A stretch of 64,000 bases of DNA from an uncultured bacterium (GCA_964577695.1 CAZOAL010000003.1:163486-227485); one strand, 5' to 3'. Shown: positions 20,396-60,795, counted from the stretch's first letter. Numbers and translations are program-made. Notes: generated by a model not told the origin, from the letters alone.

Positions 20396-20500
20396 AGGGC
20401 TAGTCATCATTCCCAGGGGAGGCAGTCGTAGCCTAAGATTCTATCTTGGCCCCTTGCGCAAGGGGCCAAGATAGAATCTTGGGCTACAATTCAACCGCCG
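20396..20500. repeat. gene-end motif gtgagggctagtcatcattcccaggggaggcagtcgtagcc plus family-B core palindrome (gtagcctaagattctatcttggcc..ggccaagatagaatcttgggctac)
   Basis: same motif follows the stops at 42976 and, in diverged form, 11043. Confidence 0.8.
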
Positions 20501-20682
20501 GATAATTATGACCAAGCCTCGATTAAGTGTGGGGCTGGTCCATTTCTGGAAAAATGAGTTGACACGCAGCATCAGCCGGAAGGAAAGGAAGGAAGAAAGG
20601 GGGGAAACCCTTCCCTTCCTTCCTTTCCGTTCACTCTGCTCTTCTTACCCAATTGTCAACATCTTTCTGAAACACCTGTCCA

Positions 20683-21810
20683 TCACACCGCATAAGCCAC
20701 TGAGCCATCTTCGCGCAACAAGGTCTGACCGGTGTTCATGGGTTGGTACGGAGTCTGAGCGATCAGGTTGTCGTCGAGCTCCACACCCAACCCCGGCGCT
20801 TCGGGAATCGGAATAAAGCCCCCCTCGCGTCGGTATGAGGTTTTATAAACCGCGTTGTGAGGGGCTTCGTCGCTTTTGGTGTACTCTTGGGTGATGAAGT
20901 TCGGGATGCTGGCGTCGAGGTGCAGCGAGGCAGCCGTAATCAACGGACTCAGGAAATTGTGAGTCACGACGGCGCTGTGGTAGGATTCGGCGATGGCGGC
21001 GATTTTTTTGCAGTGGGTCAGGCCGCCAGCCAAAGCCACATCCGGGCGCACGTACTGAGGACCACCCGCAGCCAGCAACTCGCGGAACTCCCAGATCGTC
21101 GTCAGGCGTTCGCCGATGCCCAGAGGAACGGTGATGCGCCTGGCAATCTCCGCCTGGGACACAATGCTGTCGATCTGGATGGGGTCCTCCAGGAAGTAGA
21201 GATTAAAAGGTGCCAAAGCCTCAGCCAGGACGATGGCGTTCATAGGAGTGAGTTTGCGGTGGACTTCGACGATTAGGTCCAGGTCGGGGCCGCCGCCCTC
21301 GCGTGCCGCCGCGACCAGGTCACGGGCCGTCTTGACAAGGCGATCCAGGGCCATATTCTGGTATCCACCGACCACCGGGTCGAACTTGAGGGCAGTGAAA
21401 CCCTCCTCCACCGTCGCTTTGGCAGTCTGGAACATTGCCTCCGGGGTGGAGCCGCCAGCCATAAGGTGCAGGCGGATTTTGTCGCGGCAATTGCCTCCTA
21501 ACAGCTCCCACACTGGGACGCCGAAGTGCTTGCCTTTGATGTCCCACAGTGCGATGTCAACGGCACTGATGGCACCACAGAGGGCCGACCCCCGAAAAGG
21601 CCCCATGCGATAGAGGTACTGCCAGTGGTGTTCAATGCGCAAGGGATTCTGGCCGATCAGGTACTTCTCGAAAGTCCCAACGATTCTTTCCACCGCTTCG
21701 GGGTAGCCCCAGCAGGCGGTCTGGCCAATGCCGCTGATACCATTATCGGTATGGATGCGGACCACATAGCCATTGCCAATAAAGAGGGATTCGATTCTGT
21801 CAATTTTCAT
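20683..21810 (-). CDS. mandelate racemase/muconate lactonizing enzyme (enolase superfamily) sugar-acid dehydratase, galactonate/mannonate dehydratase-like
   Basis: N-terminus MKIDRIESLFIG...ISAVDIALWDIKGK...; 375 aa; RBS aaaggag. Confidence 0.75.
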   Translation of the reverse strand: MKIDRIESLFIGNGYVVRIHTDNGISGIGQTACWGYPEAVERIVGTFEKYLIGQNPLRIEHHWQYLYRMGPFRGSALCGAISAVDIALWDIKGKHFGVPVWELLGGNCRDKIRLHLMAGGSTPEAMFQTAKATVEEGFTALKFDPVVGGYQNMALDRLVKTARDLVAAAREGGGPDLDLIVEVHRKLTPMNAIVLAEALAPFNLYFLEDPIQIDSIVSQAEIARRITVPLGIGERLTTIWEFRELLAAGGPQYVRPDVALAGGLTHCKKIAAIAESYHSAVVTHNFLSPLITAASLHLDASIPNFITQEYTKSDEAPHNAVYKTSYRREGGFIPIPEAPGLGVELDDNLIAQTPYQPMNTGQTLLREDGSVAYAV

Positions 21811-21834
21811 GGTGAACTCCTTTCAAAACTGTGA

Positions 21835-21995
21835 ATGACACGACTGTTTCAGTTATGGGCAAAAGTGATGCGCAGACTTCCGAAGTTTCAACATCTGAGT
21901 TGAGCTGAGACGATGTGAAACCATAAAAAACAGATTCAGCAAAAATCGGGTCTCAAACTTCGGAAGTCTCAGTGAAAAACTCGTATGAATAAGGA
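21835..21995. repeat. MITE-like element family A, copy 2
   Basis: aligns base-for-base with 9740-9900. Confidence 0.8.
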
Positions 21996-22104
21996 TTAAC
22001 AGAAAAATCTCGTGGAGATTCATTATCTCATACTTTCATCAACGGGTCAATACGGAAAAAAGCTGATATGCGTGTTTTTAATTGATTTCGGACTTTCCAG
22101 GTTT

Positions 22105-22160
22105 TGAATCCGTCCAGTTTGCGTGTTGCGTATCGCGTATTTCGTACTTCTACGCAACAC
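22105..22160. repeat. inverted repeat tttgcgtgttgcgtatcgcgtatttcgta / tacgcaacacgcaatacgagag
   Basis: read directly. Confidence 0.7.
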
Positions 22161-22327
22161 GCAATACGAGAGTTCGTGTTGGTCAGTTATACGAGTTTTT
22201 CGCTTGGTTCCCTCGCCCCTTGTGGGAGAGGGAGAAAGACGAACCTTCGGTTGGACTCGATTGGGCGATAACCGACAAACTCGTATCAGTTATTGGGAAA
22301 TTCTTTACGAATTAACGGAGGAAGATA

Positions 22328-23254: not shown

Positions 23255-23403
23255 TGGAAGGAGGGGAGGGATGGAAGAAAGCAACCTGCCAAGTTCCCTC
23301 TCCCTCCGTGGGAATTGCTTCGCGATATTTGATGTGCAGGGCTTCCACCATAAGGTCAAGTCCACAGAGCTCAGTCACCGAGCGTGCGTTGAAGCTTGGC
23401 GTT

Positions 23404-23874: not shown

Positions 23875-24026
23875 GGGTGTACCACAGGGTAACCGACCTT
23901 TTCGATCTCCCTGCGCTCCATTTCATAGTAAGGACTGCGGAAAGGTCTTTTGGAATCGGGACCAAGATCTATAATCACCCTTCCCTTTTTCATCTGTTCA
24001 CGTATCCATTTTTTGTTGTTATTCAT
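23871..24026 (-). CDS. small ORF (51 aa) MNNNKKWIREQMKKGRVIIDLGPDSKRPFRSPYYEMERREIEKVGYPVVHP, below the 60-aa ORF-track cutoff
   Basis: translated by hand from the complement; its stop TGA overlaps the ATG of 23404..23874 (cccATGAatg). Confidence 0.4.
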   Translation of the reverse strand: MNNNKKWIREQMKKGRVIIDLGPDSKRPFRSPYYEMERREIEKVGYPVVHP

Positions 24027-27844: not shown

Positions 27845-27880
27845 CAGGCGTGAAACGTGAAACGTGAAACGTGAAATGTG
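27845..27880. repeat. (GTGAAAC)x3-4 heptamer repeat
   Basis: gtgaaacgtgaaacgtgaaacgtgaaatgtgagg. Confidence 0.85.
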
Positions 27881-27912
27881 AGGATTTGAACCCATGAACT
27901 GATGAACACCCT

Positions 27913-30805: not shown

Positions 30806-30900
30806 CATGAAACGTATTGCGTATTGCGTATTGCGTACTGCGTATTGCGTGAGTCGTGATACCTGAACCTAACACCTAACACCTAACACCTGACACCTAA
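30806..30900. repeat. (GCGTATT)x5 followed by (CACCTAA)x5 heptamer tracts
   Basis: cgtattgcgtattgcgtattgcgtactgcgtattgcg ... cctaacacctaacacctaacacctgacacctaac. Confidence 0.9.
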
Positions 30901-30916
30901 CGAACGAGGAATAAAA

Positions 30917-32242: not shown

Positions 32243-33169
32243 ATGGCTAGGAAAAAAATCAGCGTCATCGGCGCTGGAAACGTTGGCGCGACTGCCGCAT
32301 TTCTTATCGCTCAAAAGCAAGTTGGCGATGTCGTGATGGTGGATATTATCGATGGGATTCCACAGGGGAAGAGTTTGGACATGGCACAAGCATCCCCTAT
32401 TGAGCTCTTTGACGCAAGCGTTACAGGCTCGCTGGATTATGAAGCGACTGCTGGCTCTGACCTCGTCATCATTACGTCTGGCTCTCCCCGCAAGCCGGGC
32501 ATGACCCGCGAAGACCTCTTGCAGACCAATGCGAAAATCGTTGGCATCGTCACGGAAAGCGTGGTGAAGCACTCGCCGAATTGTATCATCGTGATGTTGA
32601 CAAACCCGCTGGACATCATGACCTATCATGCGTGGAAGGTGTCGGGTTTCCCACCCAATCGCGTCCTTGGACAAGCTGGCGTCCTGGATTCAGCGCGGTT
32701 CCGTTATTTTATCGCTCTGGAACTTGGCGTCTCTGTCGAAGACGTTCAGGCACTTGTGATGGGGGGACACGGGGATACGATGGTGCCCCTGCCGCGTTAT
32801 ACAACGGTTGCCGGGGTTCCAATCACACAACTCATGTCCCCTGAGCGAATCACAGCGCTTGCCGAGCGGACACGCGACGGCGGCGCTGAAATCGTCAACC
32901 TGCTGAAAACCAGCGGTTACTACGCCGCCGGTGCCGCGCTCGCTCAAATGGCAGAAGCTATCATCCGAGACAAGAAGCGGATTATCCCTTGCTCGGCTTA
33001 CCTCACCGGACAGTACGGCATCAATGACCTGTACAGCGGCGTCCCGATTAAATTGGGGGCGGGCGGCGTTGAGCAGGTTATCGAAATCGAACTGACAGAC
33101 GATGAACTTCAGGCGTTGCAAACGTCGGCTCAGACGTATCGGGAAGGGATTCAACTGCTGGGGTATTGA
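32243..33169 (+). CDS. mdh: malate dehydrogenase (LDH-like MDH family)
   Basis: KISVIGAGNVGATAAFL Rossmann N-terminus; 308 aa; family conservation throughout. Confidence 0.85.
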   Translation: MARKKISVIGAGNVGATAAFLIAQKQVGDVVMVDIIDGIPQGKSLDMAQASPIELFDASVTGSLDYEATAGSDLVIITSGSPRKPGMTREDLLQTNAKIVGIVTESVVKHSPNCIIVMLTNPLDIMTYHAWKVSGFPPNRVLGQAGVLDSARFRYFIALELGVSVEDVQALVMGGHGDTMVPLPRYTTVAGVPITQLMSPERITALAERTRDGGAEIVNLLKTSGYYAAGAALAQMAEAIIRDKKRIIPCSAYLTGQYGINDLYSGVPIKLGAGGVEQVIEIELTDDELQALQTSAQTYREGIQLLGY

Positions 33170-38102: not shown

Positions 38103-38429
<327 letters not shown>

Positions 38430-38764: not shown

Positions 38765-39165
38765 CCGTGTTCGACACCAACATCCTGTTATCGGGAGTGG
38801 GCTGGCGGGGCAATCCTTATCGCTGCCTTGAGTTGGCACGGGCTGGCATGGTGGAAGGAGTCCTCTGTCAGGAGTTGCTAGACGAGTTGACGGAGAAACT
38901 CCAAACCAGGTTGAAGTTTTCCACTGCTCAAGTCACTGACACTGTTGTCGATTTACTGACCTTCCTGCGGATGGTGACTATCACGAACACCCTAAAGGTT
39001 GTCGCCGCTGACCCCGACGATGACAAAGTGTTGGAGTGTGCGGTGGTCGGCGGAGCAACTCACATCGTCACAGGTGACCGGCACCATCTGCTGCCACTGG
39101 GCAATTATCAAGGCATTTCCATCGTCAGTGCTGCCGATTTTCTCATGCTGGTGCCTGTGCCGTGA
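38752..39165 (+). CDS. PIN-domain ribonuclease (VapC-like toxin)
   Basis: VFDTNILL N-terminal motif; acidic cluster AADPDDDKVLECA; C-terminal IVTGD. Confidence 0.7.
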   Translation: MCYVAVFDTNILLSGVGWRGNPYRCLELARAGMVEGVLCQELLDELTEKLQTRLKFSTAQVTDTVVDLLTFLRMVTITNTLKVVAADPDDDKVLECAVVGGATHIVTGDRHHLLPLGNYQGISIVSAADFLMLVPVP

Positions 39166-39247
39166 TGAAGTGGGGAATTTTACGGAAGTACCAAGGCGAC
39201 GGCAAAAAAGATTGGGGTCAAGTTCAGAGGAAGGTAGTTTTGTAGAG

Positions 39248-40165
39248 ATGAACCAGCGCAAATATCCTGAACCAGACACATTAGTGGCCCTCCTCAAAGA
39301 AAAACGGGATTTAAGCATTCTCGAAGAAGAGGGGTGGTATCGCATTCCTGTCAAAAGTGCGCCCAAATTGCTAGAGCGGGTCAAATATCTGGCGTTCTAT
39401 CAACCGAAGACCTTTGGCGAAGAGAAGTGGCGGGTGCAATATTACGGACGCATCAAACGGATCGACGAAGTGAAACGCATTGAGCTACTACCGCATGAAT
39501 CGTCTCATCCCCGGCGCGATGAACGCTATCATCGGATTGAAATCTCCGACCTTCAGGCATTACCGAAACCAATCGTGAGCTATCGGGGGAGAAGAATCGT
39601 GTTTATCCCGACCACTTTTGAGAAACTGCGCGCTGCGGAAGAACTCAATGATCTGTTTCACGATAGCCCTTTGGAAGATGACCTGTGGCTACAGTTGAAA
39701 AAAGTACAGATTGAGGCGGAAAGACAATATTATGTACAAGAGGGAGGAAGGCGTTATTGTTTGGACTTTGCCCTGCTGTGTCGGGAGGGGAAAATCGATG
39801 TCGAATGCGATGGAGACCAATGGCATCATAATCGAAAAATCGCCCCGATAGACAATAAGCGGGATAATTTCCTCCATCGGAAAGGCTGGCATGTGCTTCG
39901 TTATTCAACGGTACAACTCCAGAAGATGCAGACCAGTTTGAATGAGATCAAAGAGACGATTTATCAGTGTGGCGGGATAGTTCCCACAGGCAAGCCGACG
40001 CCAATGCTGACGGATGGGCCCACTTTGGAGCAGGTCGAGCAACTGGCGGCGCAACTGCCGGCCCAAGAGCAATTGCGGATGGTTGCGCACCTCAGCCAAC
40101 AGTTGAGTGAGCGGGTGGTATCGGAGAAAGTTGAGGAATACGAGCCGCAAGATGATGTTCAGTAA
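39248..40165 (+). CDS. protein with C-terminal DUF559 (Vsr-like PD-(D/E)xK) endonuclease domain
   Basis: YCLDFALLCREGKIDVECDGDQWHHN...RDNFLHRKGWHVLRYS matches the DUF559 core. Confidence 0.65.
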   Translation: MNQRKYPEPDTLVALLKEKRDLSILEEEGWYRIPVKSAPKLLERVKYLAFYQPKTFGEEKWRVQYYGRIKRIDEVKRIELLPHESSHPRRDERYHRIEISDLQALPKPIVSYRGRRIVFIPTTFEKLRAAEELNDLFHDSPLEDDLWLQLKKVQIEAERQYYVQEGGRRYCLDFALLCREGKIDVECDGDQWHHNRKIAPIDNKRDNFLHRKGWHVLRYSTVQLQKMQTSLNEIKETIYQCGGIVPTGKPTPMLTDGPTLEQVEQLAAQLPAQEQLRMVAHLSQQLSERVVSEKVEEYEPQDDVQ

Positions 40166-40306
40166 GCAGAAGTTAGCCCAAAAGTGGAACCTGTCGCTGC
40201 CTGATAGGAGAGATGACAACCTTCAGATTACGGAGCGCAAGGCACTGGAAGGCTACATTCAATGCTTACAGGAAGGATGTAATGTGCCATTGCAAGGGGG
40301 AAAACC

Positions 40307-40699
40307 ATGGAAATACAAGTGATGTCCGTTATGCCGGAGAGGATGGTAAAACTGCTGACCGGCTTGACGGTTAGCGATTGGATTGCTGTTGTGGGGTTAA
40401 TCTTCACCATGGGGGGTGCATTGTATGCCTGGTGGCGGTGGTGGTGGTGCAGTGCCAAAGGTGAACTGAAGCGAATCTACCGGCGCGCTGCCAGGAAAGC
40501 AACGCAGAAAAATAGCAAGCTTGTGCCAATCGTATGTGCCATAGTTGATGAAGCCGATTTTTGGAAAGGGGCATGGTCCCCGCGTGTTTCTGAAACGGAT
40601 GAACGCGAGAGTTTTCGTGAACAATTGAAACGACGGTGCCCTGCTTTGGATGTGACTAAATTAGGGCGTGTTGACGAACTCGGGCAAATGCGCTCGTAG
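40307..40699 (+). CDS. hypothetical membrane protein; C-terminal codons are supplied by repeat element B
   Basis: one TM segment and WRWWWC; the ORF runs into the MITE-like element at 40655. Confidence 0.3.
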   Translation: MEIQVMSVMPERMVKLLTGLTVSDWIAVVGLIFTMGGALYAWWRWWWCSAKGELKRIYRRAARKATQKNSKLVPIVCAIVDEADFWKGAWSPRVSETDERESFREQLKRRCPALDVTKLGRVDELGQMRS

Positions 40700-40795
40700 C
40701 CCAAGTTTCTAACTTGGTGCCTCGTCCCCAACCAAGATAGAATCTTGGGCTACAGTTGGATTGCGAAACAGTTCGTCAACACGCCCTCAACCAGC
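40655..40795. repeat. MITE-like palindromic element family B, full copy (TIR gggcgtgttgacgaact; core gtagcccaag[at]ttctaacttgg / ccaagatagaatcttgggctac)
   Basis: full copies at 46075-46215 and 60655-60795; core-only copies at 20430-20500 and 43010-43075. Confidence 0.85.
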
Positions 40796-42976
40796 ATCAT
40801 TGACTCCGACATAAAGGGCATCCTCTACCTGCGCTGTCTGCGCGGCGACCTCAGTCTGGGGCGGATGTTCGTCGAGGCGGGGCGCATCGTCGGAGGTAGC
40901 GAGGCGTTCCAGCAGACCTACGCCAACCGCGATCTGACCCTTGAGCGGAAACTGGAGTTCTTCTTCCGTGAACTGAGCCGAGCGGGGGACGTCTGGGTGG
41001 TGATGGACAACTTTGAAGACCTGCTTGCCCCCGACGACACCATCGCTGACCCGGAGCTGCGCCAGTTCATCGAAACCGCTGTGGACACCTCGCACACCGT
41101 GCGCCTCATTGCCACCACCCGCGCCATCCCGCGCTTTCGCGGCAGTCAGCAGGTTAAGCCGATAGACCTGCGCGAGGGCTTGCCGGAAGACCAGGCAATT
41201 GCGTATCTGCGAACGGATGGAGCGGACTACGGCCTGGCGGATGCCGACGAGGGGTTGCTGCGCGCCTTCGTCAACCGCGTCCACCGCATCCCGAAGGCGC
41301 TGGAGTCGGTCATCGGCTACCTCTCGGAGAAATATCCTGTGGTGCAGTTGTCCGACCTGATGGCGAACGACGCCCTGTTTGCGGACTTTGACCGCCACGA
41401 CGCGGAGAACGGCTTGAAGCGGCTCATCGCCGAACAGTTTGCCGACCAGACGCCGGACGCGCAGTTGGTGCTGTGCGCCCTGTCTATCTTCCCCAAGCCC
41501 GCCCCGCTCACCGCGCTGCGCTATCTGCTCCCCGCCCTCGACTGGGCGAGCGTCCTGCCCCGTCTCGAACGCAACAGACTGGTTGGCAGACAGGTTGACC
41601 GCTATGACCTGCACCCGATTGTGCGGGAGTATGCTTATGCGCAGATACCTGAATACATGCAGGATTCAAGGTTCAGGTCAGAGCGGAGCGGAGACTCCCC
41701 GATGGGATCGGGACAGGCCGATCTATCGGAGATTCAGGATTCAGGTGAGACAGTGTCTGCACCTTCCACCAACGGCGTGCCATTCACTCGCTCTGCGTTG
41801 CACACGCGGGCGGCGGATTTCTTCCGTGAACTCCGCAAGCCGCAACAGGAGTGGAAGACCATCGCTGACCTTGAGCCGCAGTTGGACGAGTTCCACCATC
41901 GCGTCCGAGCGGGGCAGTATGACGCCGCGGCGCGAGTGCTCAATGACATTGACTTCGACTACCTGCAACTCTGGGGGCACGCCCGAACGGTCATTGAGTT
42001 GCGCCAGCAGTTGGAGGGGAAGTTGACGGACACCGATCTGGCACGCGTCAACGTGGGCCATTTGGGGTTTGTTTATCAGGACACGGGGCGGGTGCGCGAA
42101 GCCATCCCCTGCCTGGAACGTGCCTTACAAAGCGCTCGGGATGAAGACAATCAGGGTGGGATCGGCGTATGGCTGGGCAATCTGGGGAATGCCTACGCCG
42201 ATCTGGGGGAGACGCGCCAGGCTATCGAGTATTACGAGCAGGTGCTGGAGATTGCCAGAGCGATTGGCGACCGACGGGGGGAAGGGAATTGCTTGGGCAA
42301 TCTGGGGATTGCCTACGCCGATTTAGGTGAGAGGCACCAGGCGATTAGGTATTACAAGCAGGCGCTGGCGATTAAACGCGAGATTGGTGACCGAGTAGGG
42401 GAAGGCAAACAGTTGGACAACCTCGGAGCAGCGTACTTGAGGTCAGGCGAGTTCGATTCGGCAATCGGACACTACACGCAAGCAGCGCGTGTGTCGGAAG
42501 AGGTGGGTGACAAAGAAAACCAGTCTTATGCCCTGGGTGGCCTGGGCGCTGTCCACCATCACCGTGTCAACCTCGCCGACGCCCGCCGCTGTTACGCAGA
42601 CGCCCTCGCCCTTGATATGCCGAGGACCGACTACAGTTGCGCCGTCAAGTTAGGTGTCCTCTGCCTGGAAGAGGGCAAGGCAGAGGATGCGCAGGACTAC
42701 TTCGCCCGCGGCATCGCCCTCTGCCGCGCCCTGCTGGAAAAGACGCCGCGTCTTTACGACGCGCTCTACGAACTTGCCCTCGCGCAACTGGGGGGCGGGC
42801 AGCCTGACGGTGCCCTCGTCACCTATCGGCAGGCGTTGGAGGTCTGCGCGGCGAAGGGTGTGGTGCAGAATGCGCTTCAGGACCTGCGGCTGCTGGGACG
42901 GGCGGTGTTGCCGGTGGCAGGGTTGGCGGAGGCGGTGGCGTTGTTGGAGAAGGCTACGGAAGGGGGGGTTAAGTGA
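40745..42976 (+). pseudogene. STAND-type (NB-ARC-like) NTPase-TPR protein lacking its N-terminal P-loop; probably 5'-truncated
   Basis: Walker-B-like VWVVMDNFEDLL and IATTRA present but no GxxxxGK[ST]; ORF starts inside repeat B; C-terminal TPR units (NLGNAYADLGETRQAIEYYEQVLEIAR... x5). Confidence 0.55.
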
Positions 42977-42977
42977 G

Positions 42978-43078
42978 GGGTGGTCATCATTCCAAGGGGA
43001 GGCAATCGTAGCCCAAGATTCTATCTTGGCCTTCCGGCACAAGAGCCAAGTTAGAAACTTGGGCTACAGAAGGGTTTT
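42978..43078. repeat. gene-end motif (gtgaggggtggtcatcattccaaggggaggcaatcgtagcc) plus family-B core palindrome
   Basis: compare 20396-20500. Confidence 0.8.
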
Positions 43079-43190
43079 GGCCGAATGTTGAATATGTGCT
43101 CGGAGTGGTGACGATTCGCCAACGAACACGGAAAGGATATGTCCAAACCGCGTTCCTCGTTGATGGTCTTTCTAAAGGAGGTAAGTTGTT

Positions 43191-43493
43191 ATGGAAAAAA
43201 CCTTAAAGTTCTCGTACTATCCGCCCAGCGATGCGCTGAATATTCACTTTGGCGAGCCGCGCCCGTGTATCTCAAAGGAGATCGCCGATGAGATTTATCT
43301 GAGGCTCGATTCAGAGACGCGCGAGGTCGTTGGTTTAACCATCCTGCATTTTCGCCAGCGATTTACGGGAGCGAAAAATAAGCCCTTGTCTTTCGACATA
43401 CCGGTTCTGGCTCACATTCAATTGCTGATGCGCGAGGCGCAAGCGCTCGGGCTCATTACGCGCCGCGATGTGAGAGGTGCTGAATGTCACTGA
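43191..43493 (+). CDS. DUF2283 domain protein
   Basis: YYPPSDALNIHF...EVVGLTILHF matches the DUF2283 pattern (YDPEADALYIRL...GIEIL). Confidence 0.6.
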   Translation: MEKTLKFSYYPPSDALNIHFGEPRPCISKEIADEIYLRLDSETREVVGLTILHFRQRFTGAKNKPLSFDIPVLAHIQLLMREAQALGLITRRDVRGAECH

Positions 43494-43592
43494 GCAACAT
43501 TCACCTGAACCCTGCGCTTACCGATCGCGACCTGGATTGGGTTTTGGGATGGTTGCACGACCCGCGCACGATAGCGAGAGCAGATTGGCCCG

Positions 43593-44033
43593 ATGCGTTC
43601 ATTGCCTTTGACCATCTTCGCCGACCTGCGGGAGGCGGGAATTGAGTTTGCAGCGCACGACCTGTTGAAACGAGAGGAACGGCGCAGTCCTTACGACCTG
43701 ATGGTGTTGAGACGCAAAGGGGATGTCAAGTTCAGCACCTATTTTCTTCATCTGGCGCGCAGTTTTCCGTTGCGCCACGACTTCTACATCACGCGCCTGT
43801 ATGCCGTGTCGCGGCGGATGTGGCAGGACGTTGTCATTCTGCGCCCCGAGGTGTGGGCGGAACTGGATGGCGAGACGCAGGCTACCGCATTGGAAGACAC
43901 GCTCAATATCTTTCCTACAGCAGCGGAAGTGCAACTGCGTGGGGCACCCTATATCGCGGTGGACTACGCCCTGTGGAAAGACAGGGTGAAAGCGCGACAG
44001 CAAGCGCCAAAGGAGGAAATTTCTGATGAGTAA
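43593..44033 (+). CDS. hypothetical protein (146 aa)
   Basis: ORF only. Confidence 0.4.
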   Translation: MRSLPLTIFADLREAGIEFAAHDLLKREERRSPYDLMVLRRKGDVKFSTYFLHLARSFPLRHDFYITRLYAVSRRMWQDVVILRPEVWAELDGETQATALEDTLNIFPTAAEVQLRGAPYIAVDYALWKDRVKARQQAPKEEISDE

Positions 44034-45954: not shown

Positions 45955-46075
45955 TGAATAAATTTCTTTGACTTTTCACCCTCACCCCCGGCCCCTCCCC
46001 ATCAAGGGAGAGGGGAGCAACACAGTTCCCTCCCCTCGTGGGAGAGGGTTAGGGTGAGGGGGATTCAGAACAAAA
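45955..46075. repeat. GC-rich REP-like palindromes (tcaccctcacccccggcccctccccatcaagggagaggggagc ... ccctcccctcgtgggagagggttagggtgaggggg)
   Basis: read directly; related to the intragenic elements at 52733-52800 and 55350-55420. Confidence 0.7.
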
Positions 46076-46215
46076 AAGTTGAAAGAACTAGGGCGTGTTG
46101 ACGAACTATTTTTCGATCCCGTCGTAGCCCAAGATTCTATCTTGGTTTAGTGCTTGGGGCCAAGTTAGAAACTTAGGCTACAAGCGCATTTCCCCGAGTT
46201 CGTCAACAGAGCCTA
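46075..46215. repeat. MITE-like element family B, full copy; exact reverse complement of the 60655-60795 copy
   Basis: direct comparison. Confidence 0.85.
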
Positions 46216-50892: not shown

Positions 50893-50992
50893 TGTGTGAA
50901 ACGTGAAACGTGAAGAGGAACATGCAAACACCTAACACCTAACACCTAATACCTAACACCTTCCACGCATCACGTTTCACGACTTAAAAGGA
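50893..50992. repeat. heptamer hairpin element: (GTGAAAC)x3 ... (CACCTAA)x4 ... CGTTTCACG
   Basis: read directly. Confidence 0.85.
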
Positions 50993-52065: not shown

Positions 52066-53103
52066 ATGAACGATACAATCACCGCCATCAAGGGAATCAA
52101 AGTTGGACATGCGACGAATCCAGTGGCACGCACCGGGTGTACGGTTATCCTCTGCGAGTCCGGGGCTGTCGCCGGAGTCGATGTCCGCGGCTCTGCGCCC
52201 GGCACACGAGAGACAGATGCCATCCGACCAGGAGGACTGGTTCAGTGTGCACATGCAGTTTTGCTCACGGGTGGAAGCGCGTTCGGATTGGACGCCGCCG
52301 GAGGGGTCATGCAGTACCTCGAAGAGCGAGGTATCGGATTTCCTGCTGGGCCAGTCCGTGTGCCGATTGTTCCGGCGGCGGTCATTTTCGATCTGGGAGT
52401 CGGCGATGCAAGGGTGCGCCCAGACTCGGAAATGGGCTATCGTGCCTGTGTAAGTGCGACAAACCAGCCGGTCAAGATGGGGCAGATTGGGGCTGGAGCT
52501 GGCGCAACCCTCGGAAAGGCGCTGGGGTGCATTCCATCAAACGGCGGCGTTGGATCGGCGTGTCGAAGGTTGAAGTCAGGGCTGATCGTCGGGGCGATTG
52601 TCGTCGTCAACGCGCTTGGGAACGTCGTCGATCCAATGACCGGAGCAATCGTGGCGGGTGCCCGGGATAAAGGGACGGGTGAGTTTGTGGATATTGTGGC
52701 GCGTTCATCCGATGCCACGCTGCCTTTCCCTCCCCCTCACCCCTTACCTCTCTCCCCAGCCCGCTTCGCTTCGAGAGGGGCAGGGAGTGAGGGGAGGGGA
52801 GGGGTCAGGAACGAGAGTGGAACGTTGGGAACGAACACAACCATCGGTATCGTCGCGACCAATGCCGAGCTCTCCCCTACAGCGGTGACGAAGGTGGCAC
52901 AGATGGCGCATGACGGCCTGGCGAGAGCGATTCGCCCAGCTCACACGATGTTCGATGGAGACACGATTTTCGCGCTCTCTCTGGGAACGGAAACGGCTTC
53001 GAGTCCCGATTCTATCGGGATCGCGGAAGTGAATACCATCGGAATCGTTGCGGCGGAGGTCATGGCGGAAGCAATCTTGCAGGCTGTGAAACGTGACGCG
53101 TAA
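52066..53103 (+). CDS. P1/S58 (DmpA-type) family aminopeptidase, carrying an in-frame insertion of a GC-rich palindromic element
   Basis: N-terminal GIKVGHATNPVARTGCTVIL pattern; low-complexity insert LPFPPPHPLPLSPARFASRGAGSEGRGG encoded by the 52733-52800 repeat. Confidence 0.7.
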   Translation: MNDTITAIKGIKVGHATNPVARTGCTVILCESGAVAGVDVRGSAPGTRETDAIRPGGLVQCAHAVLLTGGSAFGLDAAGGVMQYLEERGIGFPAGPVRVPIVPAAVIFDLGVGDARVRPDSEMGYRACVSATNQPVKMGQIGAGAGATLGKALGCIPSNGGVGSACRRLKSGLIVGAIVVVNALGNVVDPMTGAIVAGARDKGTGEFVDIVARSSDATLPFPPPHPLPLSPARFASRGAGSEGRGGVRNESGTLGTNTTIGIVATNAELSPTAVTKVAQMAHDGLARAIRPAHTMFDGDTIFALSLGTETASSPDSIGIAEVNTIGIVAAEVMAEAILQAVKRDA

Positions 53104-53104
53104 T

Positions 53105-53300
53105 ACCAATTCGCGTTTCAAAAAGTTTCCTACTTCGTTATACGAGTTTTTCGCTTAGACTTCCGAAGTTTGACACCCAACCTGCGCGGGACGGTTCCTT
53201 CAAGGTTTCGCATTGTACCGGCTCACCTCGTCTGTTAAAACTTCGGAAGTCTGGGTCTCACTTTTGCTGATAACCGAAAAAGTCGTATCGTTACACTCAG
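53105..53300. repeat. MITE-like element family A, copy 3
   Basis: gttatacgagtttttcgcttagacttccgaagttt ... aaacttcggaagtct ... rc matches the 9700-9900 copy. Confidence 0.8.
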
Positions 53301-54639: not shown

Positions 54640-54790
54640 TAAATTCGTAGTCGTTCCAAACAGCGACTGAAGTCGCCACTACGGGGAATGCTTTATTTTT
54701 AGAGCAAAATGTGACAATCTGTAGTTTAGCCCCCCCGATCCCTCGGGGGGGCTAAACTACGATAGGTCGCATCTGCTAAAAGTTTAATTT
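54640..54790. repeat. palindromic repeat family C, copy 2 (gcgactgaagtcgccactacg; gggggctaaactacgat palindrome)
   Basis: reverse complement of 11110-11135. Confidence 0.65.
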
Positions 54791-54980: not shown

Positions 54981-56003
54981 TTATGTCCCTGACGGGATTT
55001 GAAACGTCTCCACACAGGCTTTGATATAAGATTTGATGGCTTTGCCATAATCCGCATCCCGGATGGCGAAGTCGATGAAGGCGCGATAATAGTCCTCATG
55101 GTTGCCAAGGTCATACCGCGTTTCAGATGCCGCCAGTTGCACCGCGCGAACCGGATATCCCTGGTGGATGAGATGTTGAATCGCAGGGGTGACAGGAATT
55201 TCTCCATCCGGCGTCAGAGGAACTTTCCGGATGGCTTCAAAGATTTCGGGACCGAAGATGTAACGCGCATTTACAGCCAGCGAGCTGGGAGCGTCTGCGG
55301 CGGAAGGCTTCTCAACGATGTCGGAAATTTCCACATCACTGCCCTCTCCATCCTTGCCCCCCCCCCTCACCCCCTGCCCCTCTCCCCAGCCCGCTTCGCT
55401 TCGAGAGGGGTGAGGGGGTGCCGGTCCCGATCTTGGATCGGGACTCCCGGAACGGGGCTTGACAACACCGTAGCGGTGAATCTGTTCGCGGGCAACCTTT
55501 CTCACGCCGACCGTACATACGGACTGACGGGTGATATGGGAGTTGACCATACGAATTATATAATTGGGGTCGAGTTCTGAATAGATAATCGTATCACCGT
55601 AGGCGACGATAAACGGTTCAGCCCCCACGAACGTTTCGGCGGCAGCGATCGCGGCACCCGTACCTTGCGGTTTCAGGATGCCGGGCGGTCCCTGTTGACG
55701 GGTGTAAAAAAAGGAAATCCCTCTCGCTTGATAATCGAACGTTCCAAGCCGATCTAATTGTCCGACTTGAGTCAAGTAGGCGATGAGCTCCGTCTGATTA
55801 TCAAACTGGTTCTCGATAATCGTCTTGCTGCGAGAGGTGATGAAGAGAATATCGCGAACGCCAGCAGAGATCATCTCTTCCACAACGTACTGAATGGTGG
55901 GATAACGACCCACCGGAAGCATCTCCTTCGGGAGTGCGCGTGTGGTTGGTAAGAGTCTCGTCCCGAAACCGGAGACAGGGATGACAGCCTTACGTATCGT
56001 CAT
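54981..56003 (-). CDS. galU: UTP--glucose-1-phosphate uridylyltransferase-like sugar nucleotidyltransferase, with an in-frame palindromic-element insertion
   Basis: KAVIPVSGFGTRLLPTTRALPKEMLPV N-terminus; about 45 residues longer than typical GalU, with insert ...PAPPHPSRSEAGWGEGQGVRGGG... encoded by 55350-55420. Confidence 0.65.
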   Translation of the reverse strand: MTIRKAVIPVSGFGTRLLPTTRALPKEMLPVGRYPTIQYVVEEMISAGVRDILFITSRSKTIIENQFDNQTELIAYLTQVGQLDRLGTFDYQARGISFFYTRQQGPPGILKPQGTGAAIAAAETFVGAEPFIVAYGDTIIYSELDPNYIIRMVNSHITRQSVCTVGVRKVAREQIHRYGVVKPRSGSPDPRSGPAPPHPSRSEAGWGEGQGVRGGGKDGEGSDVEISDIVEKPSAADAPSSLAVNARYIFGPEIFEAIRKVPLTPDGEIPVTPAIQHLIHQGYPVRAVQLAASETRYDLGNHEDYYRAFIDFAIRDADYGKAIKSYIKACVETFQIPSGT

Positions 56004-56054: not shown

Positions 56055-56423
56055 TCATTTGAGTCCGAGACTGCGTTTGAGACAAGTATCAACTTTTCCC
56101 ATGAGTGTATCTGACATCTTTCCAACTTTACGTGATACCAATGAGGCAGGCACTGTCATCACAAAGTCCAATCGCACAATAGAAGTGGCCCTTAGTCCAG
56201 TACCGCCGAAATCTGGATGACTCGCGTGGATTTCTAATTCATTCGCTGTCAGGTTTGTTAGATGTTGTGAGGTGATTGCAGCAAGCATCAGATCATCAGG
56301 GAACCTTCGCGACACTGTATGATCGGAGACAATCAATGCTGGTCGTAACTTTTGCTGCGTACCTGCGGCAGTTAGAAATGGGTAGTCAATCAGGACAACA
56401 TCACCCCGTTCGTAAATTGGCAT
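56055..56423 (-). CDS. MazF/PemK-family type II toxin endoribonuclease
   Basis: RGDVVLIDYPF...KLRPALIVS N-terminal pattern. Confidence 0.7.
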   Translation of the reverse strand: MPIYERGDVVLIDYPFLTAAGTQQKLRPALIVSDHTVSRRFPDDLMLAAITSQHLTNLTANELEIHASHPDFGGTGLRATSIVRLDFVMTVPASLVSRKVGKMSDTLMGKVDTCLKRSLGLK

Positions 56424-58665: not shown

Positions 58666-58679
58666 AGTTACCTCCTTAC

Positions 58680-58961
58680 TTATAGTGCTTCGTTTCCGTA
58701 TGAGTTTTCAAACGGTGCAGAGGCAGCGTGGATTCGCGCTTGCTCTACAGCGGTTCCCGATGCTTTCTGCGCGAGATACCCCTCTATCTCCCGTTCGATT
58801 TTTTCAATCAGGAATCGGGTGCTATCTACACACATCTCGCGAATGTCGGGGTGAATCTCAGTCTCATCAAGCGTTTTATATCTTTCCAAGACTCGCTGAA
58901 ACCTTTGAACCCAATCACGAGAGACTTGTAATTCAAAATCATCTTTAATCTTCGTTGCCAT
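58680..58961 (-). CDS. hypothetical protein, downstream partner of the nucleotidyltransferase gene
   Basis: MATKIKDDFEL...; overlaps the upstream gene by 17 nt. Confidence 0.4.
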   Translation of the reverse strand: MATKIKDDFELQVSRDWVQRFQRVLERYKTLDETEIHPDIREMCVDSTRFLIEKIEREIEGYLAQKASGTAVEQARIHAASAPFENSYGNEAL

Positions 58962-59385
58962 GACAAGATACCTCCACAATACCACGCGGGCGTTTCCGCT
59001 GAGTGTGGCATAAAAAAGTCATAAAATCTGTATACAATTCCAGTGGATACTCATACAACACCAAATAGCCCTGGTCCACATCATAGTGCATCCTAGCCTC
59101 GAAGGGGACGAAAAAGCGTTGGTCTTCGGGGTCAATTGCGGCAAGTCGGTGCCGTGGATCCACGACAATCGAGTAATCCAAATCTCCCGGTTCCGGTTTG
59201 GCGGAGACAAAGCTGCCCCACAGCAAAACCCGTTTAATCGTCGGATACTTTCTCGCGCTTTCGACGATGAGGCGTAGCAGATTGCCACCCCGTTCTCGTG
59301 TTGGCTTAACGGACTGTTTTCCCCATTTAGAGAATAGGAAAAAAACAACCCTAAACCTATAAGTATATCCCGCCACGCGGGACAA
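58945..59385 (-). CDS. minimal nucleotidyltransferase (MNT-like) domain protein
   Basis: VLLWGSFVSAKPEPGDLDYSIVV resembles the GS-X9-13-D-x-D motif. Confidence 0.5.
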   Translation of the reverse strand: MSRVAGYTYRFRVVFFLFSKWGKQSVKPTRERGGNLLRLIVESARKYPTIKRVLLWGSFVSAKPEPGDLDYSIVVDPRHRLAAIDPEDQRFFVPFEARMHYDVDQGYLVLYEYPLELYTDFMTFLCHTQRKRPRGIVEVSCHGNED

Positions 59386-59397
59386 CGTGACCTCTTA

Positions 59398-60618
59398 TCA
59401 GGGTTCAAACGCGTCTTGTTCCTTAATGGCATTTTCTTCATAGGCGCGAATTATTTCGACGTTCTTTCTTTCGATTTCGTTGAGCAAGCCTTCGCTGAAG
59501 TTCGGGTTAGGTTTGTACCAATTAAAACTGGAGAAGTAGTTTTGCAGCCACTTATTCTCAAACACTTTACCGCGGCGGGCATAGATCTCGTCGCGCAACT
59601 TGCTCGCGTCTTCAAGAAACAGGCCATCAAGCAAACTTTCAGAAATGGACTTGGTGCTCAGCTCATCGTGAATTCTGCGCTCGAGCTTGACAATCGTCGC
59701 GATATTCTTGATTTCAATCGGGGATAGTTCCGGCTCGCGGAAATCCTTCATCGGTTCGTACCAGGGATGCATATTGAAGTATGTTTGAATCCATTCCGTG
59801 CGGAAGCGACACCCTCGTAATGCATAGACTTCATTTCGCAGTATGCGCAGTTCGTAAAGTCCTAGCCCGTGCAGCATGTCTTCGGTGATAAGTTTGTTTT
59901 GAAACATGTCCATGTCGCCAGGTAACAGGCTGAATTTGCTTTGCTTCTTTTCTACCGCACGAATTGTCGTCAGGTTCTTGCGTTCGGTTTCAGTGAGCTG
60001 CTTGGGGTCGTATTTCTCGCTCGGTTTGTACCAGTAACGTTCCTCGAAATATCGCTGGATCCACGGCTCGTCGTCAAAGCGTTTGCCGTGAATGGCTTCG
60101 ATCTCTGCACGCAAAATGCGATACTCTGCTCGCGAGTGCTCACCCAACTGCCCCTCAGTGATGAAGCGGTCACGATAAAATCGCATGTCACCCAGCTCAA
60201 TGTGTTCATGTTCCCTGGCTTCGGCTTCGCGGATGATGTCAAGGTTTTTGCGTTCGGTGTCGTTTAGCATCGCGTTTTGAAACTTAGGGTCTGGTTTGTA
60301 CCACGGACGATGCTCGAGGAACCCCTGCTGGATGTCCCGCTTTTTAAATACCCGCCCGTGACGACCAAAGACGATAGCACGTAGTACTTGCAGCCTGTCG
60401 AGCGGTTCGCCATATTCATCCCCATCGGAGTCAAAGTTCTTAACTTGCTCCGGGCCGATCTCATCTTTGGTGAAATCAAACTTCTCCCACTCTTCCACAA
60501 ACTTTAGGTCCACAAAGCCGATGAGAGGCTCCTGGGCATTAAGACGGGATGGCCGAACCACGAGCAGCACAGTGAGAATCAAGAAAATACGAAAAGTGAA
60601 GTGATATAAGGTTGACAC
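59398..60618 (-). CDS. secreted YARHG-domain repeat protein (four repeats)
   Basis: four repeats of ...YAxRGxxF...W.Q.YF...WYKP...ERKN..IIR; RBS aaggagg 6 nt before GTG 60618; signal/TM LILTVLLVV. Confidence 0.65.
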   Translation of the reverse strand: MSTLYHFTFRIFLILTVLLVVRPSRLNAQEPLIGFVDLKFVEEWEKFDFTKDEIGPEQVKNFDSDGDEYGEPLDRLQVLRAIVFGRHGRVFKKRDIQQGFLEHRPWYKPDPKFQNAMLNDTERKNLDIIREAEAREHEHIELGDMRFYRDRFITEGQLGEHSRAEYRILRAEIEAIHGKRFDDEPWIQRYFEERYWYKPSEKYDPKQLTETERKNLTTIRAVEKKQSKFSLLPGDMDMFQNKLITEDMLHGLGLYELRILRNEVYALRGCRFRTEWIQTYFNMHPWYEPMKDFREPELSPIEIKNIATIVKLERRIHDELSTKSISESLLDGLFLEDASKLRDEIYARRGKVFENKWLQNYFSSFNWYKPNPNFSEGLLNEIERKNVEIIRAYEENAIKEQDAFEP

Positions 60619-60654
60619 GGCAATCCTCCTTTGGTAAGGAATAGGAAAAATCAA

Positions 60655-60795
60655 GTCTAACACGGTATTAGGGCGTGTTGACGAACTCGGGGAAATGCGC
60701 TTGTAGCCTAAGTTTCTAACTTGGCCCCAAGCACTAAACCAAGATAGAATCTTGGGCTACGACGGGATCGAAAAATAGTTCGTCAACACGCCCTA
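60655..60795. repeat. MITE-like element family B, full copy (inverse of the 46075-46215 copy)
   Basis: direct comparison. Confidence 0.85.

What the first reader, a model, noticed from the sequence alone, without database searches (positions are those of the whole stretch)
20396..60795. MITE-like element family B: five copies, an inverted near-identical pair 14.4 kb apart, and copies bracketing the truncated STAND gene
Full copies are at 40655-40795, 46075-46215 and 60655-60795. Their terminal inverted repeats are gggcgtgttgacgaact, and the internal palindrome is gtagcccaagattctatcttgg / ccaagttagaaacttgggctac. Core-only copies are at 20430-20500 and 43010-43075. The 46.1-kb and 60.7-kb copies are exact reverse complements of each other. 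They could support inversion of the intervening 14.4 kb, which includes infC-rpmI-rplT-pheS. Copies at 40.7 and 43.0 kb flank the N-terminally truncated STAND/TPR gene. The 3' ends of ORFs 40307..40699 and 59398..60663 run into the element.
Basis: seen in the sequence. Interest (0 to 1): 0.55.

Follow-up and report, generated by a model that had tools for sequence, protein, structure and literature searches.

The report
REP hairpin pairs nested inside MITEs
The five repeats are real small mobile-DNA relics in a Candidatus Poribacteria genome: two different miniature transposons that each carry the same pair of "GTAG-tagged" REP hairpins, a repeat type that has its own dedicated tyrosine transposase (RAYT). 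I found no sign that they invert the 14-kb segment.

Summary
There are five copies at about the stated coordinates, far above chance. The 46.1-kb and 60.7-kb copies are 98% complementary, not exact.

It is not one MITE family.
- The shared "core" is a head-to-head dimer of a 22-nt REP: an unpaired GTAG tag, a 7-bp stem and a TCT loop. The stem is kept by compensatory changes.
- In seven independent metagenomic loci, this same REP flanks a REP-associated tyrosine transposase (RAYT) gene. It lies on both sides in six; the seventh is cut inside the gene. This is a classical REPtron.
- In the window, each dimer sits in the centre of a roughly 126-nt shell with terminal inverted repeats (TIRs).
  - Shell c (TAGGGCGTGTTGACGAACT) is at 40.7, 46.1 and 60.7 kb.
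  - Shell b (GAGGGsTrGTCATmATT) is at 20.4 kb, with a perfect 8-bp target duplication, and at 43.0 kb, where the right end is lost.
- Both shells also exist without the REP: at window 17.1 kb and in other Poribacteria genomes.
- In metagenomes the same dimer lies inside at least six unrelated TIR families, with 4-bp, 8-bp or TA flanks.

A close relative is colinear across the 60.7-kb junction, so there is no sign of inversion.

Verdict: a new REP family hitch-hiking in MITEs. It is a variant of known kinds and of moderate interest.

The parts
20395..20520 (.). Complete shell-b MITE carrying the REP dimer. TIRs are GAGGGCTAGTCATCATT / AATTATGACCAAGCCTC. It lies between the convergent PhyH-like and MR_MLE genes.
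   Evidence: It folds as ssDNA with z = -9.4.
20387..20394 (.). Left 8-bp target-site duplication, GATTAAGT. It contains the TAA stop of ORF 19139-20392.
   Evidence: 8/8 match with 20521-20528.
20521..20528 (.). Right 8-bp target-site duplication, GATTAAGT.
20428..20487 (.). REP head-to-head dimer. Arms are 20428-20449 (+) and 20466-20487 (-), with a palindromic 16-nt spacer.
40662..40788 (.). Shell-c MITE with the REP dimer. TIR is TAGGGCGTGTTGACGAACT; flanks are TA / TC. It sits at the 5' truncation point of the STAND gene.
   Evidence: The interior is identical to metagenome copy L099, which has different flanks.
40696..40753 (.). REP dimer. Arms are 40696-40717 (+, CAAGTT stem) and 40732-40753 (-, CAAGAT stem). 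TAG of the first GTAG tag is the stop codon of ORF 40307-40699.
42975..43086 (.). Shell-b MITE with the REP dimer; the right TIR is lost. Its first bases overlap the TGA stop (42974-42976) of the STAND/TPR ORF.
   Evidence: L137 gives the intact right side for comparison.
43008..43067 (.). REP dimer. Arms are 43008-43029 (+) and 43046-43067 (-).
46089..46215 (.). Shell-c MITE with the REP dimer, flanked by TA on both sides. It ends 23 nt upstream of the ATG of the Ldh_2 gene (46239).
   Evidence: A Logan contig of the same gene breaks inside it.
46124..46181 (.). REP dimer. Arms are 46124-46145 (+) and 46160-46181 (-).
60669..60795 (.). Shell-c MITE with the REP dimer, flanked by TA on both sides. 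It is the 98% reverse complement of the 46.1-kb copy. It lies between iolC (60845-61879, -) and the YARHG gene, about 25 nt inside the border of an island that differs in relative L186.
   Evidence: (I1).
60703..60760 (.). REP dimer. Arms are 60703-60724 (+) and 60739-60760 (-).
17063..17187 (.). Shell-b MITE without any REP. It has a perfect 8-bp target duplication, AATTATTT (17055-62 and 17188-95). It shows that the shell exists independently of the core.

Best explanation
Each copy is a composite of two nested non-autonomous mobile elements.

**Inner module.** The inner module is a head-to-head dimer of a GTAG-tagged repetitive extragenic palindrome (REP), that is, a REPIN-like unit. Each arm reads 5'-GTAG-C-[7-bp stem]-TCT-[7-bp stem] on its own strand. 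By analogy with E. coli TnpA-REP, the single-stranded hairpin plus the GTAG tag is the substrate that a REP-associated tyrosine (HUH/Y1) transposase, RAYT, binds and cuts.

**Outer module.** The outer module is an ordinary MITE shell of about 126 nt with TIRs, moved by a DDE transposase supplied in trans. Two unrelated shells occur here.
- Shell b makes 8-bp target duplications.
- Shell c is flanked only by TA.

**Proposed history.** A REP dimer came to replace the central ~45-60 nt of pre-existing MITEs. The composites then multiplied as whole units by the shell's transposase.

**State in this window.** The window encodes neither a RAYT nor a matching transposase, so these copies are passengers or relics. 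They sit in intergenic spots, at gene ends and at the borders of variable islands.

**Shown:** the hairpin covariation, the RAYT linkage, the TIRs and target duplications, shells without REP, and colinear composites at unrelated loci.

**Inferred:** the order of events, which enzyme moves what, and current activity.
For: **REP anatomy**
- All 10 arms in the window start with GTAG and then form a perfect or G-T-containing 7-bp hairpin.
- In 74 partner arms from metagenome loci, chosen only by the 6-nt GGCTAC tag, the stem is kept through double changes: CAACTT/AAGTTG 44, CAAATT/AATTTG 4, CAAAAT, CAACAT, CAGGAT, CAGCTT.
- In a separate set of 99 unascertained arms (these were pre-filtered for at least 5 Watson-Crick pairs), pair 10-18 is CG 60, GC 21, AT 10, TA 4 and pair 11-17 is TA 72, AT 22.
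- The covariation score is 0.295 against 0.104 for shuffles, with 0 of 500 shuffles reaching it.
- I counted 98 head-to-head dimers and 46 unpaired arms.
- These features match the published definition of GTAG REPs: stem 5-13 bp, short loop, unpaired GTAG, head-to-head dimers predominant, transposase association (PMC3733652).

**RAYT link**
- Seven distinct loci carry a RAYT gene with this very REP next to it: L168, L172-174, L176-179, L180, L181, L187 and L188/189. Where both sides are visible, the upstream dimer ends 15-53 nt before the start codon. The downstream REP begins 23-28 nt after the stop, or overlaps it in L180. L168 and L172-174 show only the downstream side.
- The protein scores 130 bits on NCBIfam NF047646 'REP-associated tyrosine transposase' (cut-off 80). 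It also hits Pfam Y1_Tnp and PDB 4ER8 TnpA-REP at E = 7.7e-15.
- A different RAYT remnant (L175) carries a different GTAG REP.

**Shells**
- Shell b: 9 complete elements, 4 with perfect 8-bp target duplications and 7 with at most 1 mismatch. These include window 20395-20520 and the REP-less 17063-17187.
- Shell c: the same TIR and subterminal sequence occurs without REP in Candidatus Poribacteria MAGs (L031, L041).
- Shell-c composites are colinear in the three window copies and in L057, L072, L099 and L110, each with different flanks.
- The same dimer lies in at least six other TIR families. Shell a has a perfect 4-bp duplication in about 20 of 25 elements.
Against: - No RAYT gene and no transposase matching either TIR is in the 64-kb window. 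I could not scan the rest of the source genome, so the RAYT link rests on other organisms' contigs.
- About 96 kb from other Poribacteria, including close relatives L182 and L186, has no REP of this family.
- No clean empty site was found for any window copy.
- Shell c shows no target duplication beyond TA, and its parent IS is unresolved. One TIR lies next to an IS1595 transposase fragment (L007), but IS1595 elements normally make 8-bp duplications (my recollection of ISfinder).
- Composites are the same length as REP-less shells. The REP therefore replaced the interior rather than simply inserting, and I cannot explain this mechanistically.
- The G-T versus A-C asymmetry that would show a strand-specific hairpin is only modest: 19 versus 11 overall and 12 versus 2 at pair 7-21.
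Confidence: 0.8

Rival explanations
1. This is one MITE family. The three full copies are intact, and the two 'core-only' copies are deletion derivatives that lost their TIRs.
For: All five copies share the 60-nt core. Three share 18-19-nt TIRs.
Against: - The 20.4-kb copy has its own complete, unrelated TIRs and a perfect 8-bp target duplication.
- The 43.0-kb copy shares that left TIR.
- The same shell exists with no core at 17063-17187.
- The core occurs naked, in arrays, in six or more other TIR families, and flanking RAYT genes.
Confidence: 0.05
2. The conserved double hairpin is mainly a transcribed RNA element that MITEs happen to carry. It could be a 3'-end stabiliser, a processing site or a terminator-like structure, kept by host selection.
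For: - The stems are kept by compensatory changes, and G-U-compatible C-to-T changes are tolerated.
- Four of the five window copies lie directly 3' of an ORF.
- The literature proposes RNA roles for many REPs (PMC3733652).
Against: - No Rfam family matches, even at E = 10.
- There is no T-run after the hairpins.
- The two arms carry the GTAG tag on opposite strands, so one transcript sees only one arm in the tagged sense.
- The orientation relative to flanking genes is mixed: the 40.7-kb copy is opposite to the 43.0-kb copy.
- The tight, position-specific flanking of RAYT genes (23-24 nt from the stop codon in most loci) and the tandem arrays point to a DNA substrate.
Confidence: 0.1
3. The 46.1-kb and 60.7-kb copies act as the inverted repeats of an invertible 14.4-kb segment, by programmed or recurrent homologous inversion.
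For: The two arms are 131 nt long, 98% complementary and 14,449 nt apart (I1). That is long enough for RecA-dependent recombination (general knowledge).
Against: - Relative L186 has iolC outside the segment and DUF6932-iolD inside it, in the same order and orientation as the window. L185 also keeps iolC followed by iolD on one strand.
- None of the 13 ORFs of the segment tested with Pfam is an invertase or recombinase.
- The segment holds infC, rplT and pheS.
- The flanks show no exchanged target duplications.
Confidence: 0.03

Closest known systems
GTAG-tagged REPs, BIMEs and REPINs with their RAYT (TnpA-REP), as in E. coli, Pseudomonas and Stenotrophomonas SMAG (PMC3733652, PMC3116915, PMC3479197)
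   Same: - An unpaired 5' GTAG followed by a short stem-loop.
- Subfamilies that differ by complementary stem changes.
- Mostly head-to-head heterodimers with 12-28-nt spacers.
- Tandem arrays.
- RAYT genes flanked by the same REP (REPtron).
- An extragenic location.
   Different: - The sequence is new. I found no paper containing the 22-mer, and it is A+T-rich rather than G+C-rich.
- The host here is Candidatus Poribacteria, which is not among the 8 phyla surveyed in 2013 as far as I read.
- In this window every dimer is enclosed in a TIR shell. Most classical REPINs are naked.
REP dimers 'inserted within long palindromic sequences' (Anabaena variabilis GTAG-15, Halothiobacillus neapolitanus CGTC-1; Di Nocera et al. 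2013, section 7)
   Same: A REP dimer sits in the centre of a longer inverted repeat.
   Different: - In those cases one palindrome goes with one REP family, and target palindromes without REP were not found in those two genomes.
- Here the outer palindromes behave as true MITEs, with 4-bp or 8-bp target duplications.
- They also exist without REP, and at least six unrelated TIR families carry the same dimer.
Bacterial MITEs derived from DDE insertion sequences (for example Nezha, RUP, Correia/NEMIS, ERIC)
   Same: - About 125 nt long and non-coding.
- TIRs of 17-22 nt and fixed-length target duplications.
- Intergenic copies that fold into long hairpins.
- The same TIR lies beside transposase genes or fragments (L076 DDE_Tnp_1; L007 IS1595 fragment).
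   Different: - The interior is not a remnant of the parent IS. It is a substrate of a second, unrelated transposase family.
- The parent IS is not identified for either shell.

Membership tests
GTAG REP / REPIN (RAYT-associated) | A short stem-loop (stem 5-13 bp, small loop) with an unpaired GTAG tag at one end | tested here: met
   GTAG, then C, then a 7-bp stem and a TCT loop in all 10 window arms. In the 99 unascertained metagenome arms, GTAG is conserved in 92-98 of 99 and the loop in 95-96 of 99.
GTAG REP / REPIN (RAYT-associated) | The stem is maintained by complementary substitutions among subfamilies | tested here: met
   Three stem pairs show changes on both sides. The covariation score is 0.295 against 0.104 for shuffles, with 0 of 500 shuffles as high.
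GTAG REP / REPIN (RAYT-associated) | Organised as inverted (head-to-head) dimers and clusters | tested here: met
   5 of 5 in the window. In metagenome loci there are 98 dimers against 46 unpaired arms, plus arrays in L168, L126 and L172.
GTAG REP / REPIN (RAYT-associated) | A RAYT gene flanked by REPs of the same family (REPtron) | tested here: met
   Seven distinct metagenomic RAYT loci. RAYT identity rests on NF047646, Y1_Tnp and PDB 4ER8. Not seen in the window, and the source genome could not be scanned.
GTAG REP / REPIN (RAYT-associated) | High copy number dispersed in one genome (tens to hundreds) | not testable with these tools
   Only 64 kb of the source genome is held, with 10 arms. 
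GTAG REP / REPIN (RAYT-associated) | The RAYT binds and cleaves the REP as single-stranded DNA | not testable with these tools
   This needs biochemistry.
MITE, shell b (GAGGGGTGGTCATAATT) | Short, non-coding, with terminal inverted repeats | tested here: met
   About 125 nt long, with 17-nt TIRs.
MITE, shell b (GAGGGGTGGTCATAATT) | Target-site duplication of fixed length | tested here: met
   8 bp. It is perfect in 4 of 9 elements, including both complete window copies, and has at most 1 mismatch in 7 of 9.
MITE, shell b (GAGGGGTGGTCATAATT) | An autonomous IS with the same TIRs | tested here: inconclusive
   In L076 one TIR-b end lies 250 nt upstream of a DDE_Tnp_1 transposase ORF. The other end lies outside the locus.
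MITE, shell c (TAGGGCGTGTTGACGAACT) | Terminal inverted repeats and dispersed copies at unrelated loci | tested here: met
   There are three window copies, four metagenome contigs and two REP-less copies in Poribacteria MAG OZ244587.1.
MITE, shell c (TAGGGCGTGTTGACGAACT) | Target-site duplication | tested here: inconclusive
   Only TA on both sides, in 3 of 4 scored elements. This could be a 2-bp duplication or part of the TIR. There is no 8-bp repeat.
MITE, shell c (TAGGGCGTGTTGACGAACT) | An autonomous IS with the same TIRs | tested here: inconclusive
   In L007 the TIR plus ~60 nt of shared subterminal sequence is followed by the C-terminal 57 aa of an IS1595-type transposase, and is then cut by an IS5-family element.
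Curated structured RNA family (Rfam 15) | A match to a covariance model | tested here: not met
   No hit at gathering score in the whole window. At E up to 10, only chance miRNA-model hits appear.
Invertible DNA segment | Inverted repeats plus a dedicated recombinase, or both orientations observed | tested here: not met
   Inverted repeats are present. None of the 13 ORFs tested in the segment is a recombinase. Relative L186 is colinear. Read-level heterogeneity was not testable.

The most novel reading that the evidence does not exclude
One REPIN lineage has been captured independently by many unrelated MITE families. I count at least six TIR types, with 4-bp, 8-bp or TA flanks, and the dimer always sits at the centre of the palindrome. 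Two readings fit.
- RAYT-driven insertion or template switching targets the apical loop of hairpins that MITEs extrude.
- Alternatively, carrying a REPIN gives a MITE an advantage, such as a second route of mobilisation or host tolerance.

Either reading would make DDE-MITE shells vehicles that carry REPINs between genomes. REPINs are usually regarded as strictly vertically inherited. This would explain why an identical 22-mer is found in contigs whose proteins are at most 40% identical to those of this window.
Probability: 0.25. Interest if true: 0.6.

Novelty: new variant of a known kind. Interest (0 to 1): 0.4.

Why it matters
REPINs with their RAYTs and DDE-type MITEs are usually treated as separate worlds of bacterial "junk" repeats. 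REPINs are described as vertically inherited, single-genome populations.

Here one REP family with an identified RAYT clade sits inside several unrelated MITE shells, which have their own transposition footprints. This gives a concrete system for asking how REP dimers get into palindromes, and whether MITEs can ferry them between lineages.

For annotating this Poribacteria genome, the finding explains:
- assembly breaks;
- spurious ORF ends, such as stop codons supplied by the GTAG tag or by target duplications;
- the repeats that mark the borders of variable islands (the truncated STAND gene and the iolC-iolD island).

Tried and rejected
1. The genome-contig scan with the 18-nt TIR mostly returned single chance or coding matches in Rubrivivax and others. 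Only the three Poribacteria loci were informative.
2. An all-against-all clustering of ORFs near the repeats found no recurrent transposase.
3. A regular expression for the RAYT tyrosine motif (Y..NP) missed the real RAYT, which has YIHYNAV. PDB 4ER8 later confirmed the match.
4. The empty-site search failed. The closest relatives of the iolC locus (L182 at 93% and L186 at about 92%) diverge completely just before the MITE and have other neighbouring genes, so there is no clean empty site.
5. I looked for an 8-bp target duplication for shell c, and for exchanged duplications that an inversion would leave. I found neither.
6. The core and TIR-c were absent from viral contigs.
7. A literature search for the 22-mers found nothing, and nothing on Poribacteria MITEs.
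8. I considered CRISPR because of the 54-nt periodic array in L126. I rejected it: the spacers between repeats are identical, and the unit is the REP plus its flank.
9. I asked whether ORF 40307-40699 and the STAND ORF are one gene split by the MITE, since they are in the same frame. ORF1 is a small membrane-like protein with no P-loop, so this is not supported.

Full report

Yes.
- The 17-nt TIR occurs at both ends of three elements: 7 hits against 0.09 expected.
- The two 22-mers occur as five inverted pairs: 10 hits against 0.00 expected.
- The repeat finder recovers the 46.1/60.7 pair as 131-nt arms that are 98% complementary and 14,449 nt apart (I1). They are near-identical, not exact; three mismatches lie in one TIR.
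- Exact element limits are 40662-40788, 46089-46215 and 60669-60795.

The two 'core-only' copies turn out to be more than cores (section 3).

The window comes from Candidatus Poribacteria. The best named relatives of its iolC gene (60845-61879) are Poribacteria proteins at 78-84% identity. A member of its 90% cluster is annotated Poribacteria, and a 344-aa member sits on a 260-kb contig.

**2. What the shared core is**

Each 22-mer reads GTAG-C-CAAGAT-TCT-ATCTTG-G, so it is itself a 7-bp/3-nt hairpin preceded by GTAG. The two arms of a pair differ (CAAGAT/ATCTTG against CAAGTT/AACTTG). The differences are complementary within each arm and produce mismatches between the arms. Selection therefore acts on the local hairpins, not on the long palindrome.

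- In those contigs I counted 98 head-to-head dimers and 46 unpaired arms.
- I then took 74 partner arms chosen only by their 6-nt GGCTAC tag, so they were not forced by the search pattern. Most keep a perfect stem with other sequences: CAACTT/AAGTTG 44 times, plus CAAATT, CAAAAT, CAACAT, CAGGAT and CAGCTT variants.
- In a separate set of 99 unascertained arms, pre-filtered for at least 5 Watson-Crick pairs, pair 10-18 is CG 60, GC 21, AT 10, TA 4.
- The covariation score is 0.295 against 0.104 in shuffles, with 0 of 500 as high. Slid controls fall to 0.13 or less.

An unpaired GTAG tag, a 5-13-bp stem, a 2-3-nt loop, complementary stem variants and predominantly head-to-head dimers are the published definition of the GTAG REP superfamily (Di Nocera et al. 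2013, PMC3733652).

**3. The RAYT link**

That locus holds the C-terminus of a Y1 transposase, followed after 26 nt by a tandem array of these REP dimers.

Homologues were fetched with their DNA.
- The full-length protein of about 185 aa has HFHLML and YIHYNAVKH motifs.
- It scores 130 bits on NCBIfam NF047646 'REP-associated tyrosine transposase' (cut-off 80).
- It hits Pfam Y1_Tnp, and PDB 4ER8 (TnpA-REP) at E = 7.7e-15.

In all seven distinct loci of this clade (proteins 73-80% identical), the gene has this very REP next to it. Where both sides are visible, a dimer ends 15-53 nt before the start codon. A REP begins 23-28 nt after the stop, or overlaps it in L180. A more distant RAYT remnant (L175) carries a different GTAG REP.

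This is the REPtron arrangement. The core is therefore a genuine RAYT-type REP dimer (a REPIN in Bertels and Rainey's terms, PMC3116915).

No RAYT is encoded in the window.

**4. The outer parts: two different MITE shells**

*Shell c (TAGGGCGTGTTGACGAACT)* encloses the dimers at 40.7, 46.1 and 60.7 kb.
- The same TIR and about 15 nt of subterminal sequence occur in Poribacteria MAG OZ244587.1 as ~128-nt elements with a different interior and no REP (L031, L041).
- In MAG OZ240244.1 the TIR lies next to the last 57 aa of an IS1595-type transposase, and the region is then cut by an IS5-family element (L007).
- Shell-c-plus-REP composites with colinear junctions occur in four metagenome contigs with different flanks. 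L099 is identical to the 40.7-kb copy over the available part.
- The only possible target duplication is TA.

*Shell b (GAGGGsTrGTCATmATT)* encloses the other two dimers.
- 20395-20520 is complete and is bracketed by GATTAAGT on both sides.
- 42975-~43086 has the same left end but has lost its right TIR.
- A further shell-b element with no REP lies at 17063-17187, with a perfect AATTATTT duplication.
- Of nine complete shell-b elements, four have perfect 8-bp duplications and seven have at most one mismatch.
- In L076 a shell-b end lies upstream of a DDE_Tnp_1 transposase ORF. The other end was out of reach.

Composites and REP-less shells have the same length, about 125 nt. They share about 30 nt at each end, so the dimer replaces the centre of the shell.

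**5. The wider picture**

In the metagenome loci the same dimer sits centrally in several further unrelated TIR families.
- Shell a: TTAACTTGACTTTGTCACATTA and relatives.
- TAACGACTTGTGCTA.
- TGATACyGTTGGCGAA.
- TACTTTGTCATTTAGC.
- Others.

Roughly 30% of dimers have no recognisable shell. Shell a has perfect 4-bp duplications (TTAA, ATAA, TTAG, ATAG, CTAA and so on) in about 20 of 25 REP-bearing elements.

At least three different DDE-type insertion footprints therefore carry one REP dimer. Di Nocera et al. noted REP dimers inside long palindromes in A. variabilis and H. neapolitanus, so the architecture has precedent. The multiplicity of shells, their target duplications and the REP-less shells are new details.

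None of the metagenome loci is a close relative of the window; shared proteins are at most 40% identical. About 96 kb from other Poribacteria holds no REP of this family. Neither the core nor TIR-c is in viral contigs.

**6. Context of the five copies**

- *20.4 kb.* The copy lies between the convergent PhyH-like and MR_MLE genes. The TAA stop of the former lies in the duplicated target.
- *40.7 kb.* The copy lies at the 5' truncation point of a STAND/TPR ORF that lacks its P-loop. The small ORF upstream ends at the TAG of the GTAG tag.
- *43.0 kb.* The copy directly follows, and overlaps, the STAND stop codon. The 40-44 kb region has 58% G+C against about 51% elsewhere.
- *46.1 kb.* The copy ends 23 nt upstream of the ATG of the Ldh_2 gene. 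A short public contig of that gene breaks inside the element.
- *60.7 kb.* The copy lies between iolC and a YARHG gene.

**7. Inversion hypothesis**

Relative L186 (GCA_016178185.1) has 92-95% nucleotide identity in iolC and iolD. It aligns colinearly with the window on both sides of the 60.7-kb copy.
- iolC lies outside the putative invertible segment.
- DUF6932-iolD lies inside it.
- Between them is a non-homologous island. It is a HepT-like gene plus a 367-aa ORF in L186, and the MITE plus YARHG in the window.

L185 also keeps iolC followed by iolD on one strand. The assembled orientation is therefore the ancestral one.

The segment carries infC, rplT and pheS, and none of its 13 ORFs tested with Pfam is a recombinase. 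Recombination between 129-nt repeats that are 98% identical remains physically possible. Only reads can exclude heterogeneity.

**8. RNA alternative**

- No Rfam family matches.
- The hairpins lack a T-run.
- Orientation relative to flanking genes is mixed.
- The GTAG tags of the two arms lie on opposite strands.
- The C-to-T change at stem position 7 (G-T on the tagged strand) outnumbers the mirror G-to-A change 12 to 2 in unascertained arms. This fits a hairpin read on the tagged strand of each arm, as expected for a single-stranded DNA substrate. The overall asymmetry is weak (19 versus 11).

A secondary RNA role at gene 3' ends cannot be excluded.

**9. Verdict**

The repeats are real. They are best explained as REP dimers of a new GTAG family, with an identified RAYT clade, nested in two kinds of DDE-type MITE shells in a Poribacteria genome. 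They are non-autonomous and probably passive here.

This is a new variant of known kinds, with moderate interest.

Noticed in passing
window 17063-17187: A shell-b MITE with no REP core and a perfect 8-bp target duplication, AATTATTT (17055-62 and 17188-95).
   Followed up: yes
window 11112-11143 (+) and 54652-54683 (-): A second GTAG-tagged hairpin, GTAGTGGCGACTTCAGTCGC (6-bp stem, TC loop), lies inside a 32-nt inverted pair that is 94% complementary. It may be another REP family with two copies in the window.
   Followed up: partly
window 811-995 and 7854-8194; also L182 1330-1430 and L031 ~5330: Arrays of an 8-nt unit (GGAAGGAT)n are bracketed by inverted heptamer arrays, (CGTGAAA)n and (TTTCACG)n. 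The same 8-mers follow iolC in a close relative and flank a MITE in another Poribacteria MAG. This looks like a lineage-typical simple-repeat structure of unknown role.
   Followed up: no
window 27849-27885, 30867-30912, 50895-50975, 62617-62717: Further short tandem heptamer arrays in intergenic spots: CGTGAAA, ACCTAAC and GTCAATT/GTCGATT.
   Followed up: no
window 32886-33169 and 38146-38429: A 284-nt direct repeat, 97% identical and 5.26 kb apart. It overlaps the 3' end of ORF 32243-33169 and ORF 38130-38429.
   Followed up: no
window 9730-9901, 21818-21989, 53133-53292 (inverted): Another dispersed repeat family of about 170 nt, 75-85% identical, containing GTGAAAAACTCGTAT. A similar motif lies next to a composite element in metagenome locus L055.
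   Followed up: no
window 45980-46062; 52728-52780 and 55358-55410: G/C-rich palindromic elements (CCTCACCCCC...GGGAGAGGGTTAGGGTGAGGGGG). One lies immediately upstream of the 46.1-kb copy.
   Followed up: no
window 40001-44000: The truncated STAND/TPR region has 58% G+C against about 51% in the rest of the window, and it is bracketed by composite elements. This suggests an acquired or rearranged island. Relative L186 has a NACHT gene inserted next to iolD that the window lacks.
   Followed up: partly
L187 2552-2660: The REP dimer downstream of a RAYT gene is followed by the right half of MITE shell a (gactggagcgcgatccAATGTGACAGAGTCAAGTTA), with no left half. It may be a snapshot of how a shell and a REPIN become joined.
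   Followed up: partly
L079, L104, L076, L091 (REP arms): Some REP arms are themselves interrupted by another short G+C-rich insert, for example ...CCGCTCTAAAGAGACGGTGCTGG.... Nesting therefore goes further.
   Followed up: no
L172, L176-L179, L181: The RAYT gene keeps one chromosomal neighbourhood across several metagenomes: ApeA-type HEPN gene | RAYT | heparinase II/III-like gene. This fits a single-copy, vertically inherited RAYT.
   Followed up: partly
L126 2231-2360: A head-to-tail array of the REP plus an identical 32-nt flank, with a 54-nt period. It looks CRISPR-like at first sight, but the 'spacers' are identical.
   Followed up: partly
window 56055-56423 (-) and 38999-40165 (+): A MazF/PemK-type toxin gene and a DUF559/MTES_1575 endonuclease-like gene lie near the composite elements.
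   Followed up: no
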